55,141 nucleotides of DNA from Octopus sinensis (lineage: Eukaryota), in contig NW_021833787.1 of assembly GCF_006345805.1 (NCBI RefSeq), positions 1 through 55,141 of the forward strand, read 5' to 3'. The notes under the pieces were generated by a model. It did no database searches. It was not told the origin of the DNA and was given only the letters and a program-made list of their open reading frames with translations. Positions 3,221-47,654 of the stretch are shown here, piece by piece. The position numbers were made by a program, and so were the translations under genes. Numbering within the stretch: the stretch's first letter is position 1; every line of letters begins with the position of its first letter.

Positions 3221-3410
3221 CCGTTGGCGATTTTTTCCCCTCTGTCTTCCCTTCTCTGGATCTTTGCTTCTCCTATATTTCCGACGAAGAGCTCCGCTCG
3301 AAACGTTAAACCCTCCTTCTTTCCTTCTTTCCTGAGCGTCCAATAATAGTATATTTGTTCCACGTCCTCGTATTGTGTTTTTTTGTGCTTTCTTGTTTGG
3401 ATTAACTTCA
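3221..3410 (+). mobile_element. Hammerhead-bearing short (TA)n-embedded element, subfamily A (Penelope pLTR/retrozyme-like)
   Basis: HHR-like motif at 3278-3311: TTT CCGACGA A GAGC-TCC-GCTC GAAA C GTT AAA; followed by CTGAGCGTCCAATAAT; both flanks are (TA)n. Confidence 0.75.
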
Positions 3411-3435
3411 TTATATATATATATATATATATATA

Positions 3436-3650
3436 ATAAATAAAATCCAACAAGAAAGCACAAAAACACAGCACGCGAGGACGTGGAACAAATATAGTAT
3501 TATTGGACGCTCAAGAAAGAAGGAAAGAAGGAGGATTTCACGTTTCGAGCGGAGCTCTTCATCGGAAACATAGAGAGGACAGATCCAGAGAAGGAGAAGA
3601 CAGAGGAAAAAAATCGCAAACGGTACACACACACGGTCAGCATTTTTGCA
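3436..3650 (-). mobile_element. Hammerhead-bearing element, subfamily A, inverted relative to 3221-3410
   Basis: Minus strand reads TTT CCGATGA A GAGC-TCC-GCTC GAAA C GTG AAA (about 3536-3569); homologous along its length to the preceding copy. Confidence 0.75.
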
Positions 3651-3654
3651 TGTG

Positions 3655-3685
<31 letters not shown>

Positions 3686-3735
3686 ATATATATATACACA
3701 TATATATATATAACATAATCTATTATGTATATGTG

Positions 3736-3766
<31 letters not shown>

Positions 3767-3769
3767 GAC

Positions 3770-3837
<68 letters not shown>

Positions 3838-3937
3838 TATATATACATACACAGACCCACACATGTGTATGTATGCTTGTCTGTCGATATGTATTTAGAT
3901 GTTTACTTCATGTTTTCATATATATATACTCAACAAG

Positions 3938-4006
3938 CCGGTGATTGAACTCACGACCTTACGTTCGGGAGCCGAATTTTCTAACCACTAAGCCACGCGC
4001 CTTCAC
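3938..4006 (-). mobile_element. Isolated tRNA-derived SINE head
   Basis: Minus strand GTGAAGGCGCGTGGCTTAGTGGTTAG...GTGAGTTCAATCACC: A-box and B-box-like motifs, no clean acceptor stem. Confidence 0.6.
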
Positions 4007-4130
4007 TGTGTGTATGTTTGTGTGTGTATATATATATATACATGCGCACAAACACACGCGCTATCTACTAACCTAGCCATCCATCCATCCATCCATCCAC
4101 CCATTCATCCATCCTTCCATCCGTCCGTCC

Positions 4131-4215
<85 letters not shown>

Positions 4216-5053
4216 CCTATCTATGTATCTATCCCTCTATCTCACACTCTCTCTCTCTCTCTCTGTATATATATATATATATATATACATACATCCGTCC
4301 ATCCGTCCATCCCTCCATCCATCTGTGTATACATATATTATTTCATATTGACGTCCATAAAAACAAAATATATATTTTCGCTATTTAAATTGCATATTTC
4401 TTGAATACACAACTGTGTGTACATTTAAAAGTTTATAAAATCGAAAAAAATTATTTTTGTACCGAAATAAACGAATCAAGAATATAGAGACATAAATGTT
4501 TCTAAAATCCGTTAGTACGAATTCCTTGTAATGTTATTAACCATAAAATATTCCATACTGTATTTCATGTCACTTGCAGACTTTTTATTAACAAAACCCG
4601 ATATAGAGTTTTCTTTGGGAAATTAAATTTACTTCAGCGAAATAAAATTGTCTTGCATGTGTTTGTATACATGCATGTGAGCGTGTATGTGAGCGTGTGT
4701 GTGTGTTTAGATGCATGTGTATTTTGTGCATGTTTGTGTGTTTTTGTAAACATATATGTATATATATATGTATGTATGTATATTTATATATGCATATAAT
4801 TATATATATGGTTATATGTATGTGTATATATTTATATGGGTGTATGTTTACGAATGTATATGCATATATACATATATATTTATATATGTATTTATATGTA
4901 TATGCATATATATGTGGGTATATATATGCATATATGTATATACACACACAGGTATGTATGTATGTATGTATTTATGTATATATATATATTCCACCCTCTC
5001 CTTCTGTTTCACTCTCTCTACCTTTCACTGTCCATCTATTTCTCTGTCTCTCT

Positions 5054-5100
<47 letters not shown>

Positions 5101-5579
5101 TGCATATATACGAGTGTGTATATATGCTTTGTTGATATGATGTAGATTCACACATACACACATACGCACATACAATGACATACAAACATATATTTCACAT
5201 CAAAGAACACAGAATTTATTAACATTATGCCGTAAAAAAATTCTAAATATTTTTTATATATATTCAGCATCCATGCTCGTGTGGTGCGAATATTCAAAGC
5301 CAATTAAATTAATTTAACTTTTAGAAAATTACAGAACTAACATAAGTATTCTACTCAGTATTTCTCCTATATTAGTATTTGATAGTTGTTTTCTGCAATA
5401 AAGCTCTTAGTCACTATGTATTTTTTACCATACTATTATAGTTTAAATCAGAGATTATCGACTTTGCTGCCATTTTTTTCTTGTGTTTGTATGTAATGGA
5501 AACTATGCCGGCGCTTTCCTCATTATCTATTTATACATTTTGTACAATTTCTTCATTTTATATATATATATATATATGT

Positions 5580-5772
5580 GGAGAGTTTACGAAAAAACAA
5601 AAGACGAAGACAGGTGCTGTACAAAACAAACAGATGTATTAGTATAACGCCCAGGAATAGAAAATGTCTTTTACGTTTCGAGCCTACGCTCTTCTTCACA
5701 AAGGGACACAGGAAAACAAGGAGAGAAACAAATAGAGAAAAAATGTGTGTAGTGGCTAACGATCTATCATGG
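5580..5772 (-). mobile_element. Hammerhead-bearing element, subfamily B
   Basis: Minus strand CTTT GTGAAGA A GAGC-GTAG-GCTC GAAA C GTA AAAG (5668-5703; C3>G); 3' end abuts (TA)n; homologous to 17688, 33923 and 47471 copies. Confidence 0.75.
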
Positions 5773-6252
5773 ATCCTATATATTTGTTGACTAGCTTTTT
5801 CTCGTCGCTAGATTACTGGTAGCAAAGAAATTTTCTAAATTTTTGTTTGCTACCCTGGAATTTATTAATAAAGCTATAAAGATTTTTAGCAAATTTTGGA
5901 AGGAAATTCGGCAATTTTTGTATTTGCTGCCGATGAAAAATTCCGCACTTGCGCGGTGGATTTTGAAAAGTTATAACATGTAAACACGAGGCATGTTCTG
6001 TATCATCTCGTCTTTATATGTTAATCTTGGCTTTCCTGCTGATGAGAGCTTCGCCTAGTGAATTTTTTTATTTGCTGAAGATAGCTTGAACAGATAGTAC
6101 AGGAAATAGACGGCAAATGTTTTTATTTTTCATTCCCTTTCGAAATTAGCCCCAATAGTGGTTTGGAGTTTAACGACCCCTTCTAGCGGATTAAATGTAC
6201 TGTTATGGCCATCTCTTATGTGTTTCAATGTACACTGGATATATATATGTAT

Positions 6253-6300
<48 letters not shown>

Positions 6301-6351
6301 GCGTGTGTGTGTTTGGTGTGTGGTTTGTGTATATATGCATACATTATATAA

Positions 6352-6884
6352 CGTCGGTTCTAGTTGATCGGATCAACGGAACAGCCTCCTCGTGAAATTG
6401 ACGCCCAAGTGGCTGAGCACTCCACAGACACGTTATTCAAAACGTAGTTTTAAAGGAAAGATGCGGTGAAAGAATACAGCAGGTTTCGCCGCCATACCCT
6501 GCCAGAACATCGTGGAGCTTGGAATGTTTTCGCGCAATAAACATTCTCAATGCCCGGTCTGGGAATCGAAACCTATATCTTTATTACCCACAAGGGGCTA
6601 AACATAGAGGGGACAAACAAGGACAGACACAGGTATTAAGTCGATTACATCGACCCCAGTGCGTAACTGGTACTTAATTTATCGACCTCGATAGGATAAA
6701 AGGCAAAGTTGACCTCGGCGGAATTTGAACTCACAACGTAACGGCAGACGAAATACCACTAAGCATCTCACCCGGCGTGCTAACGTTTCTGCCAGCTCAC
6801 CGCCTTGAATCGGTCTGGGAATCGAAACCGCCATCCTATGACCTCGAGTCCGTTGCCATAAACACTGGGCCATTGCACCTCCAC
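6352..6884 (-). mobile_element. SINE family 3 (tRNA-derived), interrupted by a family 2 SINE
   Basis: Head GTGGAGGTGCAATGGCCCAGTG...GGTTTCGATTCCCAGACCG; 3' part GCTGTTCCGTTGATCCGATCAAC; homologous to 34442-34700 and 53322-53652. Confidence 0.85.
6574..6810 (-). mobile_element. SINE family 2, full-length, nested insertion with 19-bp TSD
   Basis: Minus strand GGCGGTGAGCTGGCAGAAACGTTAGCACGCCGGG...GAGTTCAAATTCCGCCGAGGTC; TSD CGGTCTGGGAATCGAAACC at 6555-6573 and 6811-6829. Confidence 0.9.
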
Positions 6885-6904
6885 GCATACATATATATAT
6901 TTAT

Positions 6905-6958
<54 letters not shown>

Positions 6959-7029
6959 TATATTCGCACCCTACCACACACACACACATATATATATATA
7001 TATGTATACATAGTATACATAAATACGTA

Positions 7030-7230
7030 GTTGTGTCATTTGTGTCTGTGCTTTTCGGCTCTCCCCCCACCACTTGACAACCGGTCTTGGTAAGTTGAAG
7101 TCCCCCGTAACCTAGCGGTGTGGTAAAACAGGGCGACAGATTATGTACGAAATAAGTGTGGGGAGCAATTCGTTCGGCTAAAACCCTTCGCGGCGCTGAT
7201 GTGGCATGTCCGCTATTAGGTGACTGAAAA
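7030..7230 (+). mobile_element. Old degenerate SINE family 1 3' body
   Basis: CTTGACAACCGG...CCCCGTAACCTAGCGG...GTGACTGAAA aligns by eye with the family 1 body. Confidence 0.55.
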
Positions 7231-7277
7231 AAATATAGAAGATTATACATCGTTGCTATTATGTTAAAGTGTCGTAT

Positions 7278-7559
7278 GTCCAATGGAAACTGAAAGAAGC
7301 CTGTCGTATATATATGTATATATATGTATGTGTGCGTGTATGTTTGTGTCTGTGTTTGTCCCCCTAGCATTGCTAACCAACCGATGCTGGTGTGTTTATG
7401 TCCCCGATACTTAGTGGTTCGGCAAAAGAGACCGATAGAATAAGTACTGGGCTTACAAAAGAATAAGTCCCGGGGTCAAGTTGCTTGATTAAAGGCGGTG
7501 CTCCAGCATGGCCGCAGTCAAATGACTGAAACAAGTAAAAGAGTAAAAGAGTAAAAGAA
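7278..7559 (+). mobile_element. SINE family 1, 5'-truncated
   Basis: GGAAACTGAAAGAAGCCTGTCGTATA...GGCGGTGCTCCAGCATGGCCGCAGTCAAATGACTGAAACAA plus (GTAAAAGA)3 tail. Confidence 0.9.
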
Positions 7560-8059
7560 TATATACGTAAGTACGCAGGCACACTCACAAACACACACAT
7601 ACACACAGAAACAAACACACACATATATGTATATACACATAAATATGAAATGTATATATACGAAAGTGGTCACGATTCCTGTGTGTATACACACCTGTGT
7701 GTATACACACCTTGTGTATACACACCTGTGTGTGTATGTTTGTCTTACTGACCGTGTGTCTCCACGTTTGCGATTGTGTGTACGGGTGTTTGTCTATCCA
7801 TGCGTTCATACACAGACAATTTACCTGATTACTATTAAGAAGTGGCCAATATACCTTATAGAGAGACTGCAATCAAGTAGAAGCGCTGTTGTGCATGAGT
7901 GAGGTGGGAAGAGGCTGCAACACTTTATTGGCTTTTCAACTTATTTACAAATATTTTGTACACATTACCTTCAGAAAATCTTATTATCCTTATCAAACGA
8001 CTGATAAAAATCCATCTGCACTGCGTATGATTTCGCCACCAGCATCACCAATGCTAGAC

Positions 8060-8378
8060 GTGTGTGTATGTATATATATATATATATACATGTACATACA
8101 TACATATACATATACATATATATATGAATATATACCTATGTATATATAATGCAAACATATATATATACATGTTTATATATATATATGTATATGTATATAT
8201 ATATATAAATATATAAATATATATAATATATATATATATATATGTGTGTGTATGTATATACATATGTATATATGTGTGTGTATATATATGTATACATGTA
8301 TATCTATATATGTATTTGGACGTATACATATACATACATGTATATCAATATACATACACAGACATATATGTATATAGT

Positions 8379-8411
<33 letters not shown>

Positions 8412-8649
8412 CATGCGCACAACATATATACCTGTCTATGTTGCACACACACACACACATATACAGATACATGTCTGTATTGAATACCTGCTTACATACA
8501 TACACCCATACATGTAGGTGTGTATTTATTGATATAATTATACGAATGTGTGTAGAAAAATTCAAATAAAGAATTATCTATTTGCATAGGCGTACATATA
8601 TATTTGTATGTGCATATATATGTATATATGTATATATACATACATACAC

Positions 8650-8680
<31 letters not shown>

Positions 8681-8745
8681 ATATAATATATATATATATA
8701 AACAAAGATAAATGCGATACAATAAAATTAATTATAATCGCCAGT

Positions 8746-8834
<89 letters not shown>

Positions 8835-8902
8835 GTATATATATATATATGTATATATGTATATATGTATATATATATATAATATATATATATATATTAT
8901 AT

Positions 8903-8989
<87 letters not shown>

Positions 8990-9063
8990 CATATATACAT
9001 ATATGCATATGAATAGATATCAAAATGTATAGACGCATGAATGTCTATGATATATTATACATA

Positions 9064-9141
<78 letters not shown>

Positions 9142-9240
9142 CGAACATATATCACATACTTATATGTATATATAAACATATCCATATATGTGTGTGTGTT
9201 TGTGTGTGTAAGTGTTTGTTTCTATATGTATATGTGTGAG
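8060..9240. repeat. Long degenerate (TA)n/(CATA)n microsatellite field
   Basis: Directly visible; similar fields at about 1.5-1.9, 4.7-5.1, 20.5-22.5, 30.2-30.7, 32.4-33.0, 35.6-37.0, 42.1-42.6 and 52.6-54.3 kb. Confidence 0.95.
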
Positions 9241-9440
9241 TGTTTGAAATGACATATTCTGAAAGATTTTTTTTTCTGTACATGTAGAATACATATAAAA
9301 TCCATTCTAATAAAATATACACATCGCCCTTCTTAGATGTTATACCGAATACCAGAATCTGTCTCTGCTCAATTATATTCGCTGTTTTTCATTCCGATAT
9401 TTGGGGCGCCATACATTTTTTTTTGCTTTCTATAAAGAGC

Positions 9441-9441
9441 A

Positions 9442-9483
<42 letters not shown>

Positions 9484-9499
9484 TAAATAATAATAATAA

Positions 9500-9534
<35 letters not shown>

Positions 9535-9730
9535 AAATAAAAATAATAATAATAAATAATAATAATAATAATAGTAATAATAATAATAATAATATAATAA
9601 TAAAATAATAATAAAAATAAAAATAATAATAATAATAAAATAATAATAATAATAAAATAATAATAATATAAAATAATAATATAATATAATAATAATGATG
9701 ATGATGATGATGATGATGATAATAATAATG

Positions 9731-9767
<37 letters not shown>

Positions 9768-9834
9768 TAATAATAATAATAAAATAATAATAATAATAAT
9801 AATAATGATGATGATGATGATAATAATAATAATG

Positions 9835-9901
<67 letters not shown>

Positions 9902-9985
9902 TAATAATAATGATAATAATAAAAATAGTAAAAATGGTAATAATAAATACGGTGATAAATAAATATAATAAATAAATAAAATAAT
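9441..9985. repeat. (AAT)n/(GAT)n trinucleotide array
   Basis: Directly visible; source of poly-L/N/I ORFs. Confidence 0.95.
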
Positions 9986-10358
9986 TTCTTGCTTAAATCT
10001 GTGACTTTTAGTTATTTAGTCGTACGTCTTATAACGGATATTGCGAACAGAATGGCGTTGGTTGCAGGTTTGTAATTGTCCGTTTGTTTCTATGGTTGGC
10101 TGCGTGTGAAGACGTCGTGTGCAGTAACGGTGGATTGTCTGCGGGGCGAAAAAAAAACATTATTGAAAGTGATATCACGTTTTGTAGCAGATGTTTAAAT
10201 CTTCCGTCAATATCAAAAATCGAGAATTTGTTATCACGTGCACAGACACGCACACAACAACGCACACGCACATACAAGCAGGCACATACACACACACACA
10301 CACACATACGTATATATAACTATATACATATATATATATACATATTATATATATATAC

Positions 10359-10392
<34 letters not shown>

Positions 10393-10393
10393 T

Positions 10394-10424
<31 letters not shown>

Positions 10425-10624
10425 CTCTGAACGAAGTATAGACAGTAACTGCACGACAATGTGAAGTATATTTGCCATCTAAATATGGCTAACCACTAAG
10501 GGTGGGTGTTAATGTAGCTTGTAGCCCCAGGAGAACATCTTCTCCAGCTGGCTATTCACACACTTTCTGTGCCCTATCGGTATTTGCAAAGGGAGGTCAT
10601 CCTTCCTCGTCAACCTAAGTGATA

Positions 10625-10669
10625 CGCACGGACTACAGTTTCTGGGTATTGACTCATCATCGGCGCTCG
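10625..10669 (-). ncRNA. Candidate minimal type I hammerhead ribozyme in an unclassified GC-richer segment (about 10485-10695)
   Basis: Minus strand GCG CCGAUGA UGAGU-CAAU-ACCCA GAAA CU GU AG UC|CGU: stem I GCG/CGU, stem II with one A-C mismatch, self-complementary ACUGUAGU stem III, GUC cleavage triplet, U4>C core variant. Confidence 0.55.
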
Positions 10670-10959
10670 ACAATCACCGGTTTTCGATGGAAGGGTCCCA
10701 ATGCAAATATTTATATCCTTTTTCCAGTGATTTTTCGTCACTGATCTTGAAAAAAGTGTATCCGAGCAATAATAAATATACTTCACATTGGCGTGCTGTT
10801 ACTGTCTGTACCTTGTTTAGAGATTTATTATGGCTTCTTTACACTTTTTCAAGATCAGTGACGAAGTTTGAATTTAAACGCTTGGAAAAAATCTCACATA
10901 TTCTTACAGTTCCACTTACATATGTAGGTGTATACGCGTGTATATGTGTGTGGTGTGTA

Positions 10960-11006
<47 letters not shown>

Positions 11007-13254: not shown

Positions 13255-13282
13255 TTTATTATTATCATTATTATTATTATTA

Positions 13283-13350
<68 letters not shown>

Positions 13351-17687: not shown

Positions 17688-17833
17688 TTCTCTCCTTGGT
17701 TTTTCTGTGTACCTTTCTGTAGAAGAGCGTAGGCTCGAAACGTAAAAGACTTTTTCTATTCCTGAGCGTTATACTAATACATCTGGTTGTTTTGTACACC
17801 ACCTGTATTCGTCTTGTTTTTTTCGTAAACTCT

Positions 17834-17836
<3 letters not shown>
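17688..17836 (+). mobile_element. Hammerhead-bearing element, subfamily B
   Basis: CTTT CTGTAGA A GAGC-GTAG-GCTC GAAA C GTA AAAG (17713-17748; A6>U); flanked on both sides by (TA)n. Confidence 0.75.
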
Positions 17837-23242: not shown

Positions 23243-23447
23243 TAGTTAATCCAAACATAAACAAAGAGAAAACACAATAAGGCGAGGACGTGGAACAAGT
23301 ATAGTATTATTGGACGCTCAGGAAAGGAAAGAAAGAAGGAGGATTTCACGTTTTAAGAGGAGCTCTTCGTCAGGAACATAGAAAAAGGAAAGGTCCAAGG
23401 AAGGGAAGACGTTGAAAGAAAATCGCCAACGATACACACACGGTCAC
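23243..23447 (-). mobile_element. Hammerhead-bearing element, subfamily A (degenerate ribozyme)
   Basis: Minus strand CTGACGA A GAGC-TCC-TCTT AAAA C GTG (23343-23377); body homologous to 3436-3650; TA/CA repeats flank. Confidence 0.7.
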
Positions 23448-24991: not shown

Positions 24992-25040
<49 letters not shown>

Positions 25041-25041
<1 letters not shown>

Positions 25042-26929
25042 CACTATCACCGCTCCTCTTCTGCTTAGCCTTAATACCTCTCTCAAAACTGCTCAATGAT
25101 GCGCAGTACGGATATAAAATGTTTGATAAAAATATAAATCATCTCATTTACATGGATGATTTAAAGCTCTTTGCAAAAAATGACCAACAACTCAATGGCT
25201 TACTAGCGATTGTCAAACAATTCAGTGATGACATCAGAATGCAATTTGGCCTCGATAAATGCGCAAAAGCTACCTTTATCAAAGGAAAAATGGCAGAAAC
25301 ATCTAACGTTAACCTTGACCAGCAGAATGTCATAAAAGAATTAGACCCAGCAGAGAACTACAAGTATCTAGGGGTAATTGAAGGAGAAGGAATAAGGCAT
25401 TCAGAGATGAAGGAAAGGATCAGGGGAATGCTATCGCAGAGTAAGAGCAATACTCAAGACAGAGCTGAATGCGAGAAACAGGATCGAAGCGATCAATGCA
25501 TTAGCCATACCAGTCGTGACTTACAGTTTCAGTATCGTTAACTGGTCAATTACTGAATATGTAATCTTGACAGAAAAATACGAAAACTGTTGACAATGCA
25601 TAGAATGCACCACCCTAAGGCAGATACAGAACGACTTTATCTGCCAAGAAAAGAGGGAGGCCGTGGACTTTTACAACTGGCAATAACAATGAAGATTGCT
25701 ACAATTGGCCTAGACACCTACCTGAAAAACTCTGAGGACTGGATGTTAAAACTTGTCTCAAAACATGAAAACAAGAAAGCATCATACTCAGTAACAAAAC
25801 AGGCAAAGGAATATCTAAGTGAATTCCGAATACAACAAATTTCGGAATTAGAGATAGACATACAAGAAACAGGCACAGAAAAAGCTAAGCGCATGAAAAC
25901 CCGTGCTAAATCTGCGGCCTTAGATATTCTGAATGATAAATGGCAAGAAAAACCTCTCTATAGCAAATACCCAAAGAGAGTAAATAATGCAGATGTTGAC
26001 AAAGCCCTGACCCATCAATGGCTAATGGCCTCTGGCTTAAAATCTGAAACAGAGGGGTTTATCATAGCAGCTCAAGATCAATGCCTACCAACAAGAAACT
26101 ACCAGGCCAACATATTAAAGATCAGAAGCATCCAACGTGTCGTGTATGCAAGCAACAAAATGAAACCATTGACCATGTGGTCTCCAAGTGCAGTCTTCTA
26201 GCGCCTACAGAATATCTCAACAGGCACGATAGAGCTGCACAATATATTCACTGGGTAATCTGTAAAAACCTGGATTTGCCCCATGAAAAAAACTGGTGGG
26301 AACACAAACCACCCCCGGTGCTTGAAAATGACCACATCTCACTCCTCTGGAACTTCGCCATTCAAACTGACAGAAAGATAGATGCAAATAGGCCAGACAT
26401 TATATTGAAAGACTTCAAACAAAGAACATGCCTCCTCATTGATATGACTGTCCCAATATATAAACGTATCTGTCCCAATATATAAACGTATCTGTCAAGA
26501 CCTACCAAAAACTGAGCAAATATAAAGATCTTGAAATAGAAATCAGCAAAATGTGGAAGCTGAAGACTAAAACATTACCTGTTGTCATAGGTGCCCTGGG
26601 AATGATAGCAAAAGGGGCAGATAGCTACCTAACTCAGATACCAGGAAACCCCAAAATGGCAGAAATTCAAAAGATAGTGCTCATGGGAACTGCTCATATC
26701 CTACGCAAAATACTTTCTATGTAATCTCAAGGTTTAAAACATAATTTTCGGTTTAAAAAAAAAAAAAAAAAAAAATTTTTAGACATTCATTAGTACAACA
26801 CCCCACCCCCCAAATATATGGCACACTAGGCATAACAACAACATGAACTTCCAGCCCTGTTGTCTCTTGAGGTCTCTGGGTGAGACTTGGAGCCAACTTG
26901 TACAAATATAAAGCAAAAGTCAAACATAG
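25041..26929 (+). mobile_element. 5'-truncated R4/Dong-clade non-LTR retrotransposon (RT C-half, CCHC finger, restriction-like endonuclease), frameshifted
   Basis: SLSPLLFCLALIPL, HLIYMDDLKLFA, YKYLGV, LYLPRKEGGRGL, CRVC...ETIDHVVSKC, RHD, NRPDII, KYKDL, VVIGALG, TAHILRKILSM* (stop 26722-26724); (TAA)n on both sides. Confidence 0.93.
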
Positions 26930-26944
26930 AATAATAATAATAAA

Positions 26945-27386
26945 AATGCCCTGATGCAGTACCAGGCAGTGGCTCTCATGGCTTCTGATCTTAAAACTGA
27001 TTGGAAGTGTTATCAGGTACATTGTTTTGTCTTGGTATAAAAAGATGGGCTACAACAAATATTCTGTTCAATACCACAGATTTACTTGTCAGTTGTTTGA
27101 CCATAACCAGTTGAGCATGTCCCTTGGTGGCTGACGAAATAATGATAATAATAATAGGCTACAGCAAATATTCTGCTCAATACCACAGATTTGCTTGTCA
27201 GTTGTTTGACCTTAACCAGTTGAGCATGTCCCTTAGTGGCTGACGATATGTGCATCTCTGATCACGAGCAGAGGTAGTGGGGGAGCATCATAGCCATGTG
27301 CTGAGAGGGATTCTTAGAGGTTTGGATAATTCACCTCTGGAAATATTGGTGTTTCGCTCAACATCCTTAAACAACCCTTATTCAGG
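26945..27386. mobile_element. Unclassified non-coding repeat within the Dong/R4 cluster, with a 90-bp duplication
   Basis: 27048-27137 duplicated at 27157-27246 with a TAA-like spacer; preceded by (TAA)n. Confidence 0.5.
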
Positions 27387-29189: not shown

Positions 29190-29805
29190 ATTGGTTTCAA
29201 ATATTAGACGAGGAACGGGTTAAGTTGATTAGATCGACTCCAGTACGCAACTGGTACGTATATTATCGATCCCGAATTAAAAAAGGTAGAATTTGAACTT
29301 AGAAATAGAGTCAAACAAAATGCCGCTAAACATTTTTCTCTGCGTGCTGACGTTTCTGCCAGCTCGCCACTGTCAAATATTCTTTTCTACTCTAGGCACA
29401 AGGCCCGAAATTTTGGGGGAAGGGGACCACTCGATTAGATCGACCCCTGTAATAAAATGATAATGATATTATCAATCTCCAATTAAGGAAAGGCAAGGTC
29501 GACCTCGGTAGAATTTGAACTCAGTACGAGCGACAGACGAAATGCCGCTAAGCAATTTCCCTGCGTGCTAAAGTTTCTGCCAGTTTGACGCCGTTAAATA
29601 TTCTTTTCTATTCTAGGCAAAAGGCCCAAAATTTTTGGGGAGGGGCCGGTCGATTAGATCAACTCCAATACGAAACTGGTACTTAATTTATCAACCCTTA
29701 AAGGATGAAAGGCAAAGTCGACCACGGTAGGATTTGAACCCAGAACGAGATACAGACGAAATGCCGCTAAGCATTTCGCCCTGCGTGCTAATGCTTGTGC
29801 CATCT
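29190..29805 (-). mobile_element. Head-to-tail trimer of SINE family 2
   Basis: Three units with AAATGCCGCTAA...CTGCGTGCT...TGCCA heads; junctions T(C/T)AAATATTCTTTTCTA at about 29373 and 29594. Confidence 0.8.
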
Positions 29806-30168
29806 CTGAGCCCTGTTTTAGATTAATATTAAAACTCAATTCACTACTAGAAATAAAACAATAAGTATAAATACACTTGCTATCTCCGTTATATTCTAGA
29901 ATCTCGACATCACAAACTGGAAGTTGAATGTATTTGAAGATATTTATATAGAGACAACGAAAACCAAACGCATTACATAGTTCTGAATCAAATAACGAAA
30001 TATGATGGAGGAAAAAAATATATCAACATCACAAACAAGACAAACGGTGAGTGAAAGAGAGAAATCTGAAGAAAACATACAACGGTGAGGCTGGGAATAT
30101 ATTTGTGAGGAGGAAAAATGGTAGGATTAATGGAAAAATGAATCAGGAAGAAAAACCGGGAAAAAATA

Positions 30169-33922: not shown

Positions 33923-33925
<3 letters not shown>

Positions 33926-34132
33926 CCATGTTGATTCGCTAGCTTCTGCACGCATTTTTTTCTCTCCTTGTTTCTCTCCGTGTTTCTTTACTGTGTATCT
34001 TTCTGTCAAAGAGCGTAGGCTCGAAACCTAAAAGACTTGTTTCATTTATATTCCTGAGCGCCATACTAATACAATTGTTTGTTTATATTCCACCTGCCTT
34101 CGTTTTTTGTTTATTTTCATAAAGCTTCCCGT
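33923..34132 (+). mobile_element. Hammerhead-bearing element, subfamily B (core decayed)
   Basis: CTTT CTGTCAA A GAGC-GTAG-GCTC GAAA C CTA AAAG (33999-34034); (TA)n on both flanks. Confidence 0.72.
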
Positions 34133-35397: not shown

Positions 35398-35426
<29 letters not shown>

Positions 35427-35428
<2 letters not shown>

Positions 35429-35640
35429 TTAATCTCCTCCAAAAAGCACGACAAATAACAATAAAAACGTGAGGTCGTGGTACATACAAATTATTAATAA
35501 GACGCTCAAGGAAGGAAAGAAAGAATGTTTTACGTTTCGAGAAAAGCACTTCTTCAGAAATCGGGGACAGAGGAAAGTCCAAGAGAGACGGAAGACGGAA
35601 GAAGAAAATCGCCAACAATGTACATGTAGTTAATTTTGGA
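35427..35640 (-). mobile_element. Hammerhead-bearing element, subfamily A-related
   Basis: Minus strand TTT CTGAAGA A GTGC-TTT-TCTC GAAA C GTA AAA (35528-35560; intact core, damaged stem II); (TA)n on both flanks. Confidence 0.72.
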
Positions 35641-37923: not shown

Positions 37924-37972
37924 TCGGTTGTCAAGCAATGTTGGTGGGGGGTTACAAACACAGACACACAAG

Positions 37973-38024
<52 letters not shown>

Positions 38025-39395: not shown

Positions 39396-39534
39396 GCCCG
39401 TAGCAACAACAGCGGTAATGTTTGATCTTCTTTTGATATTGGCAAATTGTCACATATTATGGTGGAAGGGTTTAGGGAAAGAAACCGGTCCCAGTATTCC
39501 ATTCCACGAATCATGGTGGGATTAAAACTGTCAA

Positions 39535-39560
39535 AACTACTACTACTACTACTACTACTA

Positions 39561-39593
<33 letters not shown>

Positions 39594-39755
39594 CACCACC
39601 ACCATCACCGACACCATCACCGACACCATCACCACAACTACAACTATTACTACTACTACTACTATCACCACAACCGCGACCATCACCACCACCACCACCA
39701 CCACCACCACCACCACTACTACTACTACTACTATCACCACAACCGCCCCATCCCA

Positions 39756-39796
<41 letters not shown>

Positions 39797-39818
39797 CACT
39801 ACTACTACTACTGCTACT
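39535..39818. repeat. (CTA)n/(CCA)n trinucleotide array
   Basis: Directly visible. Confidence 0.95.
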
Positions 39819-42373
39819 GTATTGATAATAGCACAACTACTTGGATTTCCAATTCAGATTTGTTATGATCAGTCCGAATTTCTAAGGGGAGCGATCATCC
39901 TCGTTACTATTGTTTCAAACATTCCGACTTGTTATTCTTGGTCGTTATTGTCATAACATTTCCGCTCTCGCACTCTGCGGGTCATTTTCAATTATGGCTT
40001 CCTTCTGTTTAAAGCAAGCTTAGAAATTTCCTTCATGAGTTACGTCAAGTCAACAAGTTTCATGTTCTCCCCATTCTCTCCTTCCTCACCGTTAACCTTT
40101 CCTCACAATTTCTCTTTTCTTTTCTCTCACTCAACACACGAGGCAAGAGAAAAGCTTTGTCCAATCCACGGATTGTTTGTATTCATTGCAATCCGGAATG
40201 CAAGAAATTCCTCAGCCCATTACTTGGAGAGAATTTACCTATTTTGCTCTTGAACAAGTAGTGCTAATTAACAAGCCATAAGATGCATCAGTATATGTAT
40301 TTTAGATATTAGGCTTGTTTTGGAGTGTGATATCATGTTCATGACATGATGTTGATTGAGAAAAAAGGTACATACTTGACTATCCTCGTTGTATTCTCTT
40401 AATATTCTTTCTGAAATTGTTCTTTGCTATAAGTACTATTGCGTAGCGATAGATTATTCTCTATGTTGTCAGTTGTAGTAATAATCTGGTGGATTTCCGG
40501 GCAGCGGTTGTTTTTTTTAACGCTATGGGCACTGCAGGATTGAGTGGTACTGTTCAGTTGTCGAAACCACAGCGATATCCGTTTCGGCAGCCGATGATGG
40601 AAATACGCATAACTTATGCTCAGATGTGCAATTCTAATCTCGTTATTCTGGGTTGTCCTACATTCTTGTAAAGTGGAACGTGTCTGTGGATTCATATTTT
40701 GTGATGATTGCTTAGCTTAGTTTGGTATTGTTTCGTTTTTTTTATAGGTAATTTAATTAGGCTTGGACAAGGCTTAGGTTTTTCTGTCTAGCTTTGAGAA
40801 GTTCTATGGCACAATAATGGCTATTACTTCACCATACAAAAAAAAAATAAATAAATAACCCTGTGTTTGTCATGTATCTCAGGAAAGAAAATTTACGCTA
40901 CAATTGAATTTCCAAAGAAATTGTATCCGAAGAAAGTGTAGGATTGTGACAGTTGCATCTGGGGATTATTAGAGAGGGACTGCCTTTGGATTATCGTACA
41001 ATCAAAATTCAATTAGCGTATGAAATAATGTAGCCCTACGTAAAGAGCCGACCGTCACCGTTGAAATATAATGGATTGGTCACACGCGCCATAATTTTGC
41101 TAATTGTTTTAGGAGCTAATTTAATCGTAAGCTGACATTCACGCCCCTAAACTCTCCCAATATGCGACCCATCATCACATCCAAGTCGGAACAACACATT
41201 GATTCTAATGAAAACTACCTCGGTCAAGAATATAACGTACTTCTGATTCAGGAATTTAATCCACGATATTAAGGTCGTGAGGCTAATACGGGAACAATTA
41301 TGACTGGATGGTCAAAGCTGGAGCGTCTTGGGTTATGGTGTGAATTGTGTCACAAATAAATGGGAGTAAACAACATTACCAGCAACAGTAATAATAACGA
41401 TTTAGCGTACATTAGACAATATACTTATAAAATTATAATTGAATAAATTCGGTGATGGTCACCGTGAAACGTTTTTGATAAGAAATATATTCAATCTCTA
41501 CTGCCAAGAGGCTGGCTAAATGATAGTAAAATTATTCAAGAAAGCAACGAGAAACGCGAAACTATTAAACAGTAAGCCTCCCGTTTGAATCCAAGCGCAG
41601 AGCTAGACTGGCCTTTGATCACAAGTCTGTAGAATCCAGGCCGATTTGAGACTAAATCCCTTCTATAATAACTAATGTATTTCTGCCGTTAAGTGTGTCT
41701 TCTAAATACTGTATATTTAACAGACATTTCATTAGTTTGTAGTCGGAGAATCCACCCTGTCTCCCGTCCGCCATATTTCCACTGCTGTTTTGTATCAATA
41801 GAAGTTTTATCGATATTACACCACTGTGGATTCGATATGGAAGCATAGCTGACGTTGGCGGGGATTTTGGAATGATTTCAAACGGTCACATTAAACGTTC
41901 TATATCCATAAATCTTCGTTTAACAATCAGTTAAATGATATTAGAATTAATATCGTTGGATGACAATAAAAACTGCAGCGGTAAATGTATCATTGCTTAT
42001 GAAGTGCAACGAGGAAGAAGATAAATTACTAAACAACAGAACCAAAACATGAAGACAATGTGGGACGATATACATACATATACACACACATACATGTTAT
42101 ATATATATATATATATACATATACACACACATACTGTATATATATATACATATACACACACATACATGTATATATATAATACCTAATACACACATATATG
42201 TATATATATATATATATATTATATATATATATAAATTTGTGTATTAATTGTTTATATATATACGATATATATATATGTATAATATATATATATAATATAT
42301 AGTATGTATATGGTGTGTATCGCTCTATCAATCTAGTTATCTCTCTCCTCTCCTATCTCTCCTCTCTCTCTGT

Positions 42374-42404
<31 letters not shown>

Positions 42405-42557
42405 CTGTAACCAGGATATATATAATAAAACGGCATTTATACAGAGAATTCCATGTAAGCAATTCAGTCAATCAGCAGATAGAAGAAAAACACACATGTA
42501 TACATACATAAAAACATATATACATACATACATATATACATACATATACATATACAT

Positions 42558-42608
<51 letters not shown>

Positions 42609-43130
42609 CATGCACGTATGCATATGTTCGTTTAAACTAATAAAAGTTTTACATACACATCAGGGAATTCCAATGTAGGAAAAAACTGCTTGATATATGA
42701 CCTACACGGTATAGCATAACATATTACATTAATTTGATAGAAATAAACATTGCAAAACTATCTCAATGGAAAAATATGCTGTAGCTGTTGAATAAATAAT
42801 TGAAATTTATAAGCATTCTTCTCCGCCATAATGGGTAGAGATATGAGGCTAATCATTGGTCAGGAGCATTATTTGAAGATTGGAACGGCGTGTCGATGAA
42901 TACAAATCGAAACTGGATGATGTTTGTAAAACAAACTTTCGCTTGGAAATACTGCCTAGCAAAAATAAGATGCATGGTCAATATACTGTTAATCTTATCG
43001 CGCCATTAAGGCAGCCATGATGTGGTTGTCGTGTTTGCTAGTCATAAAGGTGAAGTCATACATTGTACGCTTGTGAACGTTACATTGGGCAATGGAGGTC
43101 ATCACTGTACAATAAATGTGGTAGTATATA

Positions 43131-43519
43131 TCTCTCTATATAAAGCTGAAGTTGTCTGTGTGTGTGTAGCAGGTTTGGTAGCCTTCAACTAACACTATAT
43201 CCTCCGAGACCCTGCGGCGCAAGTTGACCAAAATTGAGAGTATGATAGGCTTGCTCTTCCTTCCGTAGAAGAAAAAATTCAGATCGGACCATGTTAACAC
43301 CAAAAATTATCTACATCAAAATGGTGCTTTTTTTTCTATGAAAATCCCTAATTTTTAGGATTTTTTGACTGCTGTGTCGCCATTTTTCGGTGTATTTCAA
43401 CCAGAAAAATGTTCACTTAAAGAGAATAACAAGCTACATAATGCAAAATTTTTACTTTTCAAAAATTCCAATTCTAAAGGGTCGAATCAAACCCGAGCAA
43501 CGCCGGGCGATACTGCTAG
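43131..43519 (+). mobile_element. Non-autonomous Helitron, copy 2
   Basis: A|TC...CCCGAGCAACGCCGGG...CTAG|T; homologous end to end with 16758-17140. Confidence 0.85.
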
Positions 43520-44262
43520 TAAGTATATAAAGTTGAATGTGTTGTAAATAATGGTAACATACAAAAGATGACCTGTTACATGTTCGGGTCATTGTGTGAC
43601 CAAACCGGAAACCTCATTAAGCTTGCTTGGTGAGGCGGTTGATTAATGGACACACTGCCGGATAAAAAAGCAATACCTGGCAAAGTCTGGAAGAACTGAA
43701 GGGAGTCAACGGCCATCCGATAAGAAACATTAACATACTGGGCAAAATTCTTAGCGGCACTTAGCGTTCTAGATTAATGATTTGAGTTCAAATTTCGCCG
43801 CGGTCGTCTTTGTCTTTCATTCTTTTGCCAGTTGACAATAGGAGGCCACGAAATTGCTGGCCTTGTGCCAAAATTTGAAACCATTATTTGTAAGAACCAA
43901 AAAGGAAAGGAAGATAGACGACTTTTACGTTGTATGTGGAAAATCCACGGAATGAAAGGTGAGGTTGCAACTCGGGAAAAACACATAAATGGAGGGTTCG
44001 CGACCCTTGTTTTCTATTCAGAAAAAAAGCGCCAGGGTCGTGTGAGGATGGTGATTGTACTGGGGGATGCTGACTGGTTGGAAGTCTTTGTCCAACCAGG
44101 CTGAAGGATGGTGTTTCTTTTGTTCTTTTAATTGTTAATGGTTTCAGTCATAGTACAGCGGCTATGCTGGAGCACCGCGAAAAGTTAAATCACATATTCT
44201 ACACCTGAAAAAACGCGACATGGGATCACAGGATGATAGTATCACAATAAATGACGGAATAT

Positions 44263-44481
44263 ACTCTTTTACTCTTTTACTTGTTTCAGTCATTTGACTG
44301 CGGCCATGCTGGAGCACCGCCTTTTAGTCGAGCAAATCGACCCCGGGACTTTTTCTTTGTAAGCCCAGTACTTAATCTACCGGTTTATTTTTTGCCGAAC
44401 AGCTAAGTGACAGAAACGTAAACACACCAGCATCGGTTGTCAAGCAATGCTAGGGGGACAAACAAAGACACACAAACACAT

Positions 44482-44515
<34 letters not shown>

Positions 44516-44686
44516 ATATATACGACAGGCTTCTTTCAGTTTCCGTCTACCAAATCCACTCACAAGGCATTGGTCGGCCCGGGGCTATAGCATAGGACAC
44601 TTGCCCAAGGTGCCACACAGTGGGACTGAACCCGGAACCATGTGGTTGGTTAGCAAGCTACTTACCACACAGCTACTCCGGCGCCT
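44263..44686 (-). mobile_element. SINE family 1, full-length (tRNA head, CCTTGGGCAAGT segment, internal microsatellite, GTAAAAGA tail)
   Basis: Minus strand AGGCGCCGGAGTAGCTGTGTGGTAAG...GGTTCCGGGTTCAGTCCC...CACCTTGGGCAAGTG...(TA/TG)n...GACTGAAACAAGTAAAAGAGTAAAAGAG. Confidence 0.92.
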
Positions 44687-45164
44687 CTGTAAATATATAA
44701 AGCTAAATATTATTTAAATCCGGCTTGTTCGATTAAAAACCAAGATTACAAACTCTCTACCAGAAACCCCATATTAAGGAACCAGAAAATAGTAAATGAT
44801 ATATACGAAGTAAATGATATATGCCAGTATAGATGGAGTTAGTGATCGGAGGAGAGACAGGCAAAAAAAGATATATAAAAAAACATAACTTGAAGGTCAC
44901 GTGCATGAACGAAGAGAAACAGAGAGAAGGAGAGGGGAAGATAACGACAGAAACATTGAAACTTGTGGCGTCAGATAAGCCAGCAGCGAATGAGTGGCGG
45001 CAAAAGGGCGGCGCCATAACGGCTAACGGAGACGGTTCAGGCTTTCATTAGAACATCGGACAAATTCCTTATGGAATTTCTTCAGATGCTTTACATTCTT
45101 AGTAAGAATTCCGCCGAGTATAGCTATGTCTTTTGTCACCACAGGGTCGGTACAATAATGTAAA

Positions 45165-45587
45165 TGGCGGCGAGCTGGTAGAAACGTTAGCACGCCGGGC
45201 GAAATGCTTAGCGGTATTTCGACTGCCGCTACGTTCTGAGTTCAAATTCCGCTGAGGTTGACTTTGCTTTTCATCCATTCAGGGGTCGATTAAATAAGTA
45301 CCAGTTACGCACTGGAGTCGATATAATCGACTTAATCCGTTTGTCTGTTCTTGTTTGTCCTCCCTGTGTTTAGCCCCTTGTGGGTAGTAAAGAAATGGAA
45401 ATAGGTATTTCGACCCTCGCTACGTTGATAGTTCAAATTCCGCCTTTGTCGACTTTACCTTTCATCCTTTCGGGGTCGATTAAATAAGTACCAGTTACAC
45501 ACTGAGGTCAATGTAATCGACTTAATCCGTTTGTCTCTCCTTGTTTGTCCTCTCTGTGTTTAGCCCCTTGTGGTTAGTAAAGAAATA
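45165..45587 (+). mobile_element. SINE family 2 dimer (full copy plus 5'-truncated copy) with 13-bp TSD
   Basis: TSD GGTACAATAATGT at 45149-45161 and 45588-45600; second unit restarts at the internal GGTATTTCG site. Confidence 0.9.
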
Positions 45588-46214
45588 GGTACAATAATGT
45601 GACAGTCAAACAATGAAGTCCGTCGTAACGACAAATCTCCATCGCCACAAAATTGCTGGCCTTGTGTTTTGATCAGGAACGATTATACAATCCAACAACT
45701 GGCGAGGTTACGTATTTAAAAGATTAACTTTGAAATTATGTGTTTCTTGATTCGTTCGCACTCTATGGAAGTAAGAACAACCGTTTTCTATTCAGCCATA
45801 ACATTAAATCAAGCAAATCATTCCGACCAGAATTAAACAGACGGAAATATCGTGGGCCGACATTGCGTAATATAAGCGCTGAACATAACAAGAATGATTT
45901 GCGACAGGAGGTTCTGTTTCGGTTCGCTCTTTTTACGGCCGGTTAACTTCGCCGTTTCTCGTTGAAGAGGAATGAAGAATATACGAGACTTTCTACAGAT
46001 ATAGGATTTTTTTTCTTTTATTGTAACAAATTAAACAATTAATTCTAATATTGCACTGAACATGAATCATGGAAATACTTGGCTGTCAAGGAAGAAGAAG
46101 AATAATAAATCGCCTGATTATATTTAATGTGAATTATTTCCTTAACAAGAAGAAAAAAAAACAACAACAACGAAAACTAGAAAATATAAACAAACAATTC
46201 ATAACTAACAAATC

Positions 46215-46222
46215 TAATAATA

Positions 46223-46288
<66 letters not shown>

Positions 46289-46377
46289 GTAAGAAGGAGG
46301 AGGAGGCGGAGGATGAAGAGAAGGAAGCCAACAGTATAATAGTAGTAATAGTTGTTGTAGGAGTAAGAATGATAATA

Positions 46378-46447
<70 letters not shown>

Positions 46448-46634
46448 TATAATGATAGTAGTAGTAGTGATGGCAGTAAAAATATTAATATTAGTAAAAC
46501 AACAACTACTTCTACTAAAATAATAATGATAATAATAATAATAATAATAACAAAAACAACAACAACAACAACAACAAAAAACAATAATAATAATAATAAT
46601 AATGATGATGATCATGATGATGATAATGATGATG

Positions 46635-46689
<55 letters not shown>

Positions 46690-46830
46690 TAATAATAATG
46701 TTAATAATAACCAAAAGTAGCATCTTCATCAGGTGCAGTAGTAGTAGTGGTAGTAGTAGTAGTAGTAGTAGTAGTAGTTAGTAGTGGTGGTAATAGTAGT
46801 AGTAGTAGTTAGTAGTGAATATGATAATAA
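46215..46830. repeat. Compound (AAT)n/(CAA)n/(GAT)n/(AGT)n array
   Basis: Directly visible. Confidence 0.95.
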
Positions 46831-47356
46831 ATGTAATGATAATTAAATATTTGAAAAATGAAAATAAACGAAAGGCAGAAACGAAAATCTAAAAACAAAA
46901 TCACAAAAAAGCAAAAAACAAAAAACAAAACAGCAATCAAAACAAATATGATTTTCGTATTAATTGTTAGAAATTAAAATTCCAGCAGCTTAAGCATATT
47001 TTGCAACAAATTAGGCGAAATCGAGTTTAGAAATCGATGGCGTTTATGATTGATTGTGCAACATTGTAACTAATTGTTAGAGTCACGTGTCTGCTGCACT
47101 GAGACAAATAATTTATCAACGTTGGGAAAAGTTTGTCATGGAGGCTTGGTGGTGGTGGTGGTTGTGGTTGTGGTGGCTGTGTGGTTAACAAAAGCATGTT
47201 TCAAACCACATGATTACGAGTTCACTTCAACTGCGAGGATCCATGGGCAAGCCTCTTACACTAAAGCTCCAGCCAGGCCACAGCCTTCTGAGTGGAATAG
47301 GTAGAGAAATACTGAAGGAAGCATGACGTCTGTGTATGTATGAATGTACATATGTA

Positions 47357-47426
<70 letters not shown>

Positions 47427-47470
47427 CTTTTAAAGATTTTATCCTCAATTGTTAATTTATATATATATAT

Positions 47471-47654
47471 AACGGGAAGGTTACGAAAATAAACAAACGA
47501 CGAAGGCAGGTGGAGTACAAACAAACAAATGTATTAGTATGGCGCTCAGGAATAGAAATAGAACAAGTCTTTTACGTTTCGAGCCTACGCTCTTCTTCAG
47601 AAAGATACACAGAAAAAAACAAGGAAAGAAACAAGAAGAGAAAAAAAATGCGTG
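47471..47654 (-). mobile_element. Hammerhead-bearing element, subfamily B, intact ribozyme core
   Basis: Homologous to 5580, 17688 and 33923 copies; 3' end abuts (TA)n. Confidence 0.8.
47569..47604 (-). ncRNA. Minimal type I hammerhead ribozyme (36 nt), intact core
   Basis: CUUU CUGAAGA A GAGC-GUAG-GCUC GAAA C GUA|AAAG: stem I CUUU/AAAG, CUGANGA and GAAA conserved, palindromic ACGU at stem III, GUA triplet. Confidence 0.75.

What the first reader, a model, noticed from the sequence alone, without database searches (positions are those of the whole stretch)
3221..47654. Family of ~150-215-bp (TA)n-embedded elements, each carrying a minimal hammerhead ribozyme (8 copies, 2 subfamilies)
Seen: eight homologous short elements (3221+, 3436-, 5580-, 17688+, 23243-, 33923+, 35427-, 47471-), each with its 3' end at or next to a (TA)n tract. 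All share the layout stem I (CTTT/AAAG or TTT/AAA), CTGANGA-like core, A, GAGC-loop-GCTC, GAAA, C, then usually GTN, followed by a TG(A/G)GCG motif. The stem II loop differs (TCC, GTAG, TTT) while the GAGC/GCTC stem is perfect in six of eight. Known: minimal type I HHRs with almost no stem III and a palindromic loop characterise Penelope-like element pLTRs and animal retrozymes and are thought to cleave as dimers. Inference: a high-copy, non-autonomous, ribozyme-processed retroelement that targets or generates TA microsatellites, invisible to ORF-based annotation.
Basis: partly seen in the sequence, partly recalled or inferred. Interest (0 to 1): 0.85.

Follow-up and report, generated by a model that had tools for sequence, protein, structure and literature searches.

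The report
Ribozyme-bearing Penelope ends in TA repeats
Eight short repeats here, each ending at a TA microsatellite, carry the known stripped-down hammerhead self-cutting RNA motif and are likely the protein-less ends of a Penelope-type jumping gene; this is a known kind of element, though the commonest form in one subfamily has a core change predicted to blunt cutting.

Summary
In detail: eight homologous 148-208-bp elements in two subfamilies, 8 of 8 with a (TA)n tract at the 3' end (background 9.6%, p~7e-9). Each carries a motif with the layout of the minimal type I hammerhead published for Penelope-like element (PLE) pseudo-LTRs. Between subfamilies the hammerhead (75%) and a CCTGAGCG box (91%) are conserved; the rest is 46-55% identical. 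Public assemblies give roughly 10^4-10^5 times single-copy depth, also in a related species. The same motif lies just 3' of PLE ORF remains in 3 of 80 fetched metagenome loci; no PLE ORF lies in the window. Corrections: only 1 of 8 copies is fully canonical. All copies span the uncut site (56-107 nt of 5' sequence), so they are not cleavage products, and none is head-to-tail. In subfamily B, core position 6 reads U in 96-99% of contig depth (2 of 4 window copies), against 1 of 85 contexts from other sources. Best reading: ORF-less solo pseudo-LTR units likely copied in trans into (TA)n from uncut RNA. Known kind; the U6 core is the one open point.

The parts
3220..3407 (+). Copy A1; min-HHR with C3 at 3281 and position 17 at 3307; U4C core variant; TA on both sides
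3408..3439 (.). (TA)12 tract shared by A1 and A2, which sit tail to tail
3440..3636 (-). Copy A2; C3 at 3565, position 17 at 3539; U4C and G17
5580..5775 (-). Copy B1; position 17 at 5672; C3G change, A6 kept
17689..17836 (+). Copy B2, 5'-truncated (56 nt upstream of the cut), inside (TA)n on both sides; U6; position 17 at 17744
23244..23445 (-). Copy A3; position 17 at 23347; stem II damaged, G12A, G17
33924..34131 (+). Copy B3, reaches the shared 5' motif; U6, G8A, palindrome broken; position 17 at 34030; TA on both sides
35431..35619 (-). Copy A4, divergent (64-67% to other A copies); canonical core, two stem II mismatches; position 17 at 35531
47471..47654 (-). Copy B4, the only fully canonical min-HHR
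47569..47604 (-). Hammerhead of B4: stem I CTTT/AAAG, C3 at 47600, A6 at 47597, N7 at 47596, extra A at 47593, stem II 47592-47581, GAAA, self-complementary ACGT, predicted cut after 47573
47543..47550 (-). CCTGAGCG box (example copy), 91% identical between subfamilies; role unknown

Best explanation
These are ORF-less ~200-nt repeats with a fixed 3' end at (TA)n and an internal minimal hammerhead motif, likely solo pseudo-LTRs of a Penelope-like retrotransposon that are likely copied in trans by that element's reverse transcriptase and GIY-YIG endonuclease from RNA that the ribozyme has not cut. Inferred cycle: (1) a unit is transcribed into its downstream UA run; (2) the PLE endonuclease nicks a (TA)n tract, on either strand because TA is self-complementary; (3) reverse transcription starts at the constant 3' end, 92-103 nt behind the cut site, and runs to the unit's 5' end or stops early; (4) the hammerhead, which has no stem III, is predicted to be silent as a monomer, and core changes (U6 in B; C4 and G17 in A) would further spare the template. 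Shown: layout, constant 3' end, TA flanks, uncut site in all copies, abundance. Inferred: enzyme, transcription, priming, ribozyme activity.
For: The layout matches the features of PLE min-HHRs in PMC4209133: extra nucleotide between 9 and 10.1 in 8 of 8, G10.1-C11.1 in 7 of 8, ACGT palindrome in 7 of 8, U-rich 5' flank. Hammerhead and CCTGAGCG are conserved across subfamilies (75%, 91%) against 46-55% elsewhere. In one search, of 28 core and stem II positions (47573-47600) only N7, the free position, and position 6 appear among the listed variants of 5% or more (14 rows not shown). In 85 distinct contexts of GC<47%, C3, G5 and A6 appear in 72, 78 and 78, and stem I pair 2 holds in 67 through four pair types; 13 GC-rich contexts show no such core. 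Three of the 80 loci with flanks carry PLE ORF remains upstream on the same strand (L090 RT plus GIY-YIG; L046 and L084 endonuclease pieces, the last only E=0.001), so short ORF-less copies are the norm for this motif. Six of 8 copies reach the same 5' motif, CGTTGGCG in A and CGYTAGC in B, and none extends into shared sequence beyond about 16 nt further. The size equals a described 218-bp pLTR, and pLTR-only mobilisation in trans is described (PMC3846280).
Against: No PLE ORF in the window (149 of 183 candidate frames scanned by Pfam; tblastn with the L090 proteins, best E=1.2), and no genome was held, so the partner is unidentified. Contig depth falls towards the 5' end, from about 60-68k to 4-5k times single copy, which fits heavy 5' truncation as well as divergence of the T-rich part. 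No head-to-head inverted copy, typical of PLE insertions, lies in the window (against 9 of 60 metagenome loci). No promoter or target-site duplication was identified. Covariation among the 8 copies is not significant. The hammerhead's stem II has pairing probability <=0.18 in 7 of 8 full-length folds. The U6 share may be inflated because contigs drop minor variants; 2 of 4 window B copies have A6.
Confidence: 0.5

Rival explanations
1. The copies are passive, dead-on-arrival 5'-truncated 3' ends of several full-length (TA)n-targeting PLE families; no dedicated short element exists.
For: PMC4209133 reads single min-HHRs as probably truncated PLEs. The HHR lies about 100 nt from the 3' end, as in listed Hydra-clade elements. 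Depth declines towards the 5' end. Two of 8 copies are truncated.
Against: Six of 8 copies stop at about the same 5' motif and 0 of 8 extend into coding sequence. The listed loose ends at 47604-47618 continue into related purine-rich (sense: pyrimidine-rich) sequence, so part of the depth decline is divergence.
Confidence: 0.3
2. The copies are dispersed monomers of a non-LTR retrozyme: tandem master arrays give cut-to-cut circles, which a PLE reverse transcriptase copies once around, restoring the ribozyme junction.
For: The size is within the retrozyme range and solo monomers are common (bioRxiv 10.64898/2026.07.22.740005). A unit-length copy would have a defined 5' end. A 17-nt stretch before A4 matches its own 3' end at 14 of 17 positions (by eye, post hoc). 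Two single-copy-depth contigs join the 5' part to the TA flank (table 5c).
Against: No tandem in the window. The 2 joints listed in 4 runs are internal skips, with no 3'-to-5' junction in the run guessed to be RNA (contigs drop rare forms and B4 lacks the first ~25 nt). In the passages read, coral retrozymes use canonical HHRs and the minimal ones are assigned to PLEs (PMC7229834). U6 and G17 are predicted to impair the cutting that this cycle needs.
Confidence: 0.13
3. The motif is not ribozyme-derived; the repeat is a SINE or MITE-like element whose conserved hairpin is a protein-binding site that resembles a hammerhead by chance.
For: No Rfam hammerhead hit; no significant covariation in the window; 7 of 8 copies depart from the canonical core or stem.
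Against: The same stem II and GAAACGT are preceded by an unqueried hammerhead core in most AT-rich metagenome contexts and lie 3' of PLE ORF remains. N7 is the freely variable core position. No pol III B box was found, and the two ends are unlike each other in the alignments.
Confidence: 0.05

Closest known systems
Minimal hammerheads (min-HHR) in PLE pseudo-LTRs, Cervera and de la Pena 2014, PMC4209133
   Same: Type I, no stem III, palindromic 15.2-16.2, extra nucleotide after A9, G10.1-C11.1, short stem I, U-rich flank, mostly single dispersed motifs. The Acropora Neptune example has nearly the same 4-bp stem II.
   Different: All 56 aligned representatives have A6 and none has G17 (their descriptor required A6). 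Here U6 dominates subfamily B contig depth and G17 occurs in 2 of 4 A copies. No ORF-linked copy was found here.
Hydra-clade PLEs, including Hydra-1_Obim (Craig et al. 2021, PMC8557442)
   Same: (TA)n insertion; HHR about 100 nt from the 3' end; known from an octopus.
   Different: The listed Hydra HHRs have a 3-4-bp stem III with a loop, not the zero-loop ACGT; the Hydra-1_oBim motif differs in sequence.
Naiad PLEs (Naiad_Obim, Naiad_Ovul; PMC8557442)
   Same: (TA)n preference; present in octopuses.
   Different: They lack canonical HHRs; the Naiad_Obim 3' end seen in the supplement does not resemble this element (by eye). The Naiad_Ovul end was not seen.
Neptune-type PLE in locus L090 (clade name from recalled motifs) and related metagenome pLTR ends
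   Same: Same GAAGAGC...GCTCGAAACGT motif 3' of an RT plus GIY-YIG ORF.
   Different: A profile of their sequence downstream of the HHR does not hit the window copies, and 0 of 54 have a TA run at the matching distance.
Non-LTR retrozymes of animals (PMC7229834; bioRxiv 10.64898/2026.07.22.740005)
   Same: Non-coding, 200-300 nt, type I HHR, PLE-related, solo monomers occur.
   Different: Defined by tandem repeats with working HHRs and circular RNAs; no tandem is seen here.

Membership tests
PLE min-HHR motif | Extra nucleotide between 9 and 10.1; G10.1-C11.1 pair | tested here: met
   8 of 8 and 7 of 8 (one G-U)
PLE min-HHR motif | No stem III; palindromic 15.2-16.2 | tested here: met
   ACGT in 7 of 8
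PLE min-HHR motif | CUGANGA and GAAA core, H (not G) at 17 | tested here: inconclusive
   Exact CUGANGA in 3 of 8, G17 in 2 of 8; U6 in 96-99% of B-type contig depth
PLE min-HHR motif | Self-cleavage as a dimer, none as a monomer | not testable with these tools
   Needs an in vitro assay
Penelope-like element | RT plus GIY-YIG ORF sharing this terminus | tested here: inconclusive
   None in the window; genome not held; the same motif is ORF-linked in 3 of 80 metagenome loci
Penelope-like element | Constant 3' end with variable 5' truncation | tested here: met
   92-103 nt 3' of the cut in 8 of 8; 56-107 nt 5'
Penelope-like element | Partial tandem or head-to-head inverted copies | tested here: not met
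   Only one tail-to-tail pair across a TA tract
Hydra clade | Insertion into (TA)n | tested here: met
Hydra clade | HHR with a 3-4-bp stem III as listed for the clade | tested here: not met
Neptune clade | Homology of the pLTR downstream of the HHR | tested here: not met
   Profile from 24 of 31 downstream segments: no window copy hit at E<=20
Non-LTR retrozyme | Head-to-tail tandem units | tested here: not met
   no 3'-to-5' joint listed
Non-LTR retrozyme | Circular RNA | tested here: inconclusive
   One contig-only run guessed to be RNA, no junction listed
tRNA-type SINE | Pol III A and B boxes | tested here: not met
   0 of 8 B boxes, one loose A-box match (patterns recalled)
Rfam hammerhead families | Covariance model hit | tested here: not met
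   None at E<=10 for the best copy

The most novel reading that the evidence does not exclude
A SINE-like parasite of Penelope-like elements: a solo pseudo-LTR that reached about 10^5 copies after its master lineages disarmed their own hammerhead (U6 in one subfamily, C4/G17 in the other) while keeping the fold, because a cut would destroy a 200-nt template. The hammerhead shape would then serve as a recognition or dimerisation element for the PLE reverse transcriptase, which would make the open question of what PLE ribozymes do testable with natural cutting and non-cutting alleles.
Probability: 0.22. Interest if true: 0.62.

Novelty: new member of a known kind. Interest (0 to 1): 0.3.

Why it matters
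As a class this is known: minimal hammerheads in PLE ends occur by the thousand in animal genomes, and TA-targeting PLEs are described. Locally the family covers 2.7% of the window (1512 bp, one copy per 6.9 kb), and is probably filed as an unclassified SINE in repeat libraries (a guess; I could not see the library of PMC13282606). The one point that could matter: the role of PLE hammerheads is called unclear in PMC8557442, and this family offers abundant natural alleles (A6 or U6, U4 or C4, H17 or G17) in one sequence context. If the non-cutting alleles spread best, cleavage is dispensable or harmful for these short elements. A search for 'hammerhead', 'A6U', 'ribozyme' listed 2 papers; in the one I opened A6U refers to twister, the other was seen as a listing only. 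A search for 'hammerhead', 'ribozyme', 'octopus' listed no study of this family. Lunse et al. 2017, the largest survey of such variants, was not available and may already cover it.

Tried and rejected
Whole-genome count: no genome held. Rfam: only chance microRNA-type hits from TA palindromes in the 150 of 464 rows shown, none for hammerheads. Viral contigs: 38 pattern matches, none with the full hammerhead layout by eye. Exact B-type pattern with A6 in metagenomes: 0. The relaxed pattern gave other animals' families, none matching this element beyond the motif. CCTGAGCG as an anti-ribozyme strand that pairs with the 3' side of stem II: predicted at about 0.75 in A1 and A2 but <=0.03 in the other six, so rejected as general. 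Neptune assignment from a CCAGCACC-like word: profile test negative. The two RT remnants in the window as partners: one has a zinc knuckle and a PD..D motif and follows (TAA)n, the other is a short LINE-like piece; neither is PLE-like or adjacent to a copy. Organism: a protein search named no close relative (best 60%), so 'octopus' remains my inference from recalled repeat content. Run search: no RNA holder listed on record; it was run with the LINE stretch 25000-27000, not with the element. Run X18 is only guessed to be RNA; its contigs cover the element deeply and the unique flank 47670-47781 not at all, which shows neither strand nor ends. The comparison of 5' extension in the metagenome family did not run and was not repeated. 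Earlier findings by sequence and place: none.
Full report
Setting. The window is AT-rich animal-type DNA (33% GC) with 142 tandem-repeat rows. No genome is held. I take it for an octopus from recalled repeat content; no call shows this, and a protein search named no close relative.

Observation. BLAST and profile searches recover exactly the eight copies named. Subfamily A (3220+, 3440-, 23244-, 35431-) is 64-82% identical within, B (5580-, 17689+, 33924+, 47471-) 78-88%, and A to B 52-62%. The stem II pattern occurs 5 times against 0 in 100 shuffles. A TA run of 10 nt or more lies within 30 nt of the 3' end in 8 of 8 copies (background 9.6%, p=7e-9) and of the 5' end in 5 of 8 (p=4e-4). A1 and A2 sit tail to tail on one (TA)12 tract; being on opposite strands they cannot form a ribozyme dimer in cis.

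The motif. Each copy reads stem I (TTT/AAA), a 7-nt core, an extra A, a 4-bp stem II, GAAA, C, GT, position 17. These are the features that Cervera and de la Pena list for minimal hammerheads in PLE pseudo-LTRs (PMC4209133; I read parts 1-2 of 4 of the text and parts 1-2 of 3 of the supplement PDF). That paper reports thousands per genome, mostly single and probably from truncated PLEs, inactive as monomers and weak as dimers. Between A and B the hammerhead is 75% identical (421 of 560 pair-columns) and the CCTGAGCG box 91% (116 of 128), against 51%, 55% and 46% for the 5', middle and 3' parts, which points to selection on the master elements. Against: pairing is 91% over 80 cells but covariation among eight copies is not significant (43 of 500 shuffles); Rfam has no hit; in full-length folds stem II has probability <=0.18 in 7 of 8.

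Outside control. After collapsing 121 matches to 98 distinct contexts, the 85 from loci under 47% GC show the unqueried core: C3 72, U4 53 (C4 25), G5 78, A6 78 (U6 1), N7 mixed, G17 0. Stem I pair 2 holds in 67 of 85 through C-G, G-C, U-G and A-U. The 13 GC-rich contexts show no core. Many of the 85 belong to one family (46 share one loop), so they are not independent. Of 80 loci with flanks, three carry PLE ORF remains upstream on the same strand: L090 (RT, Pfam E=5e-8, plus a frame with GIY-YIG-type motifs), L046 (E=3e-12) and L084 (E=0.001). So the motif marks PLE 3' ends and mostly occurs without an ORF. These families are not ours: 0 of 54 have TA at the matching distance and a profile of their downstream sequence misses our copies.

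Abundance and variation. Contigs of four public runs were laid on 47430-47880 at 80% likeness: 12,448, 11,751, 4,759 and 2,626 records. Against single-copy depth in the unique flank (57.9 and 48.8), depth over 47510-47557 is 56-69 thousand-fold and over the hammerhead 96-169 thousand-fold. The tool warns that this is no copy number; I read it as 10^4-10^5, in line with one copy per 6.9 kb here. Runs X2 and X3 match the flank without a difference; X7 differs at 20 of 220 bases, so it is a related species, and it holds the family too. Depth ends sharply at the TA tract, does not drop at the predicted cut (47573), and declines towards the 5' end (4-5 thousand-fold at 47638-47653). Among listed variants of 5% or more (14 rows not shown), only two fall in 47573-47600: N7, which reads A, C, U or G, and position 6, which reads U in 97.5, 96.4, 98.4 and 99.2% of depth. 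Two of the four window B copies have A6, so the contig figure is probably inflated, but U6 appears to be the majority form.

What this changes. Only B4 is fully canonical. A1 and A2 have C4; A2 and A3 have G17; B2 and B3 have U6; B1 has G3. Changes at position 6 gave low activity in PMC3088659 (section 8 read; it tested A6C, not A6U), and G17 strongly impairs minimal hammerheads (PMC3884650, search listing only). All copies keep 56-107 nt upstream of the cut and 92-103 nt downstream, so the copied RNA was uncut or religated. Six of eight reach a shared 5' motif and none runs on into coding sequence. The two joints listed are internal skips; two further contigs at single-copy depth link the 5' part to the TA flank, and one repeats the 70 nt around the hammerhead (table 5c), so tandem forms are at most rare in these data.

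Mechanism. Best reading (0.5): solo pseudo-LTR units copied in trans by a PLE RT and GIY-YIG endonuclease that nicks (TA)n, primed at the fixed 3' end from uncut RNA. Mobilisation by pLTRs alone and a 218-bp pLTR are described in a rotifer (PMC3846280, passages). Rivals: passive truncated ends of full PLEs (0.3), retrozyme monomers from circles (0.13), not a ribozyme (0.05). The first two share the PLE origin, which I put at about 0.8, or over 0.9 with the retrozyme reading.

Comparison. Craig et al. 2021 (PMC8557442; passages, sections 6 and 11, part 2 of 59 of the supplement and term searches, the file being cut) describe (TA)n-inserting Hydra and Naiad PLEs, both with octopus members. Hydra hammerheads have a real stem III, Hydra-1_oBim differs in sequence, and Naiads lack canonical ones, so neither is the partner as listed. 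Retrozymes are tandem (PMC7229834, passages; bioRxiv 10.64898/2026.07.22.740005, part 1 of 5 and passages). An O. vulgaris annotation lists 31 recently active Penelope-like families and 893 unclassified SINE families (PMC13282606, parts 1-2 of 3); its library was not visible. Lunse et al. 2017 was not available; I saw it only as cited in PMC6765202 (passages) and otherwise recall it, and it may cover this family and the U6 variant. PMC11014351 and PMC11662667 (passages) added nothing.

Verdict. Real, well above chance, and a new member of a known kind. It works like the 3' pseudo-LTR of a PLE; clade and partner are open; it fails the tandem test for a retrozyme. Interest 0.3. The boldest reading left open is a short PLE parasite that spread after disarming its ribozyme (probability 0.22, interest 0.62).

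Noticed in passing
window 24993-26721 (+): Frameshifted, 5'-truncated non-LTR retrotransposon (RT, zinc knuckle, PD..D-type endonuclease motif) directly after a (TAA)16 tract; resembles the R4/Dong type (name recalled). Nearest proteins 55-60% identical, up to ~1240 aa.
   Followed up: partly
window 50882-51618 (-): Decayed LINE-type RT fragment (Pfam RVT_1 E=2e-5).
   Followed up: no
window 47782-47880: A separate repeat of about 260-320 times single-copy depth begins 130 bp upstream of copy B4.
   Followed up: no
window 47661-47880, run X7 record 25: The matching contig of the related species stops fitting at 47661 with 109 further letters, a weak hint that copy B4 is absent at that site there.
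   Followed up: no
window 47557-47565, loose ends: Contigs show a further B-like subfamily not present in the window, with CCCGAGCG in place of CCTGAGCG and a different spacer.
   Followed up: no
window 35618-35634 and 35415-35431 (-): A 17-nt stretch just before copy A4 matches the sequence at its 3' end at 14 of 17 positions: a decayed target duplication, the tail of a preceding unit, or chance in AT-rich DNA.
   Followed up: partly
window 3306-3540: The tail-to-tail pair A1/A2 would form a long hairpin if transcribed; this gives the top Rfam microRNA-type hits, all below gathering score.
   Followed up: partly
L039-L158 (for example L040, L047, L056): C at core position 4 is common (25 of 85 contexts) in an unrelated min-HHR family, and 9 of 60 loci carry an inverted hammerhead within 200 nt upstream.
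   Followed up: partly
L090:1373-3627 (-): Frameshifted PLE with RT, CxxC linker and GIY-YIG-type endonuclease, hammerhead about 680 nt after the stop, in a metagenome contig.
   Followed up: partly
window 29285-29806 and 45213-45586: Tandem pairs of ~190-220-bp SINE-like repeats.
   Followed up: no
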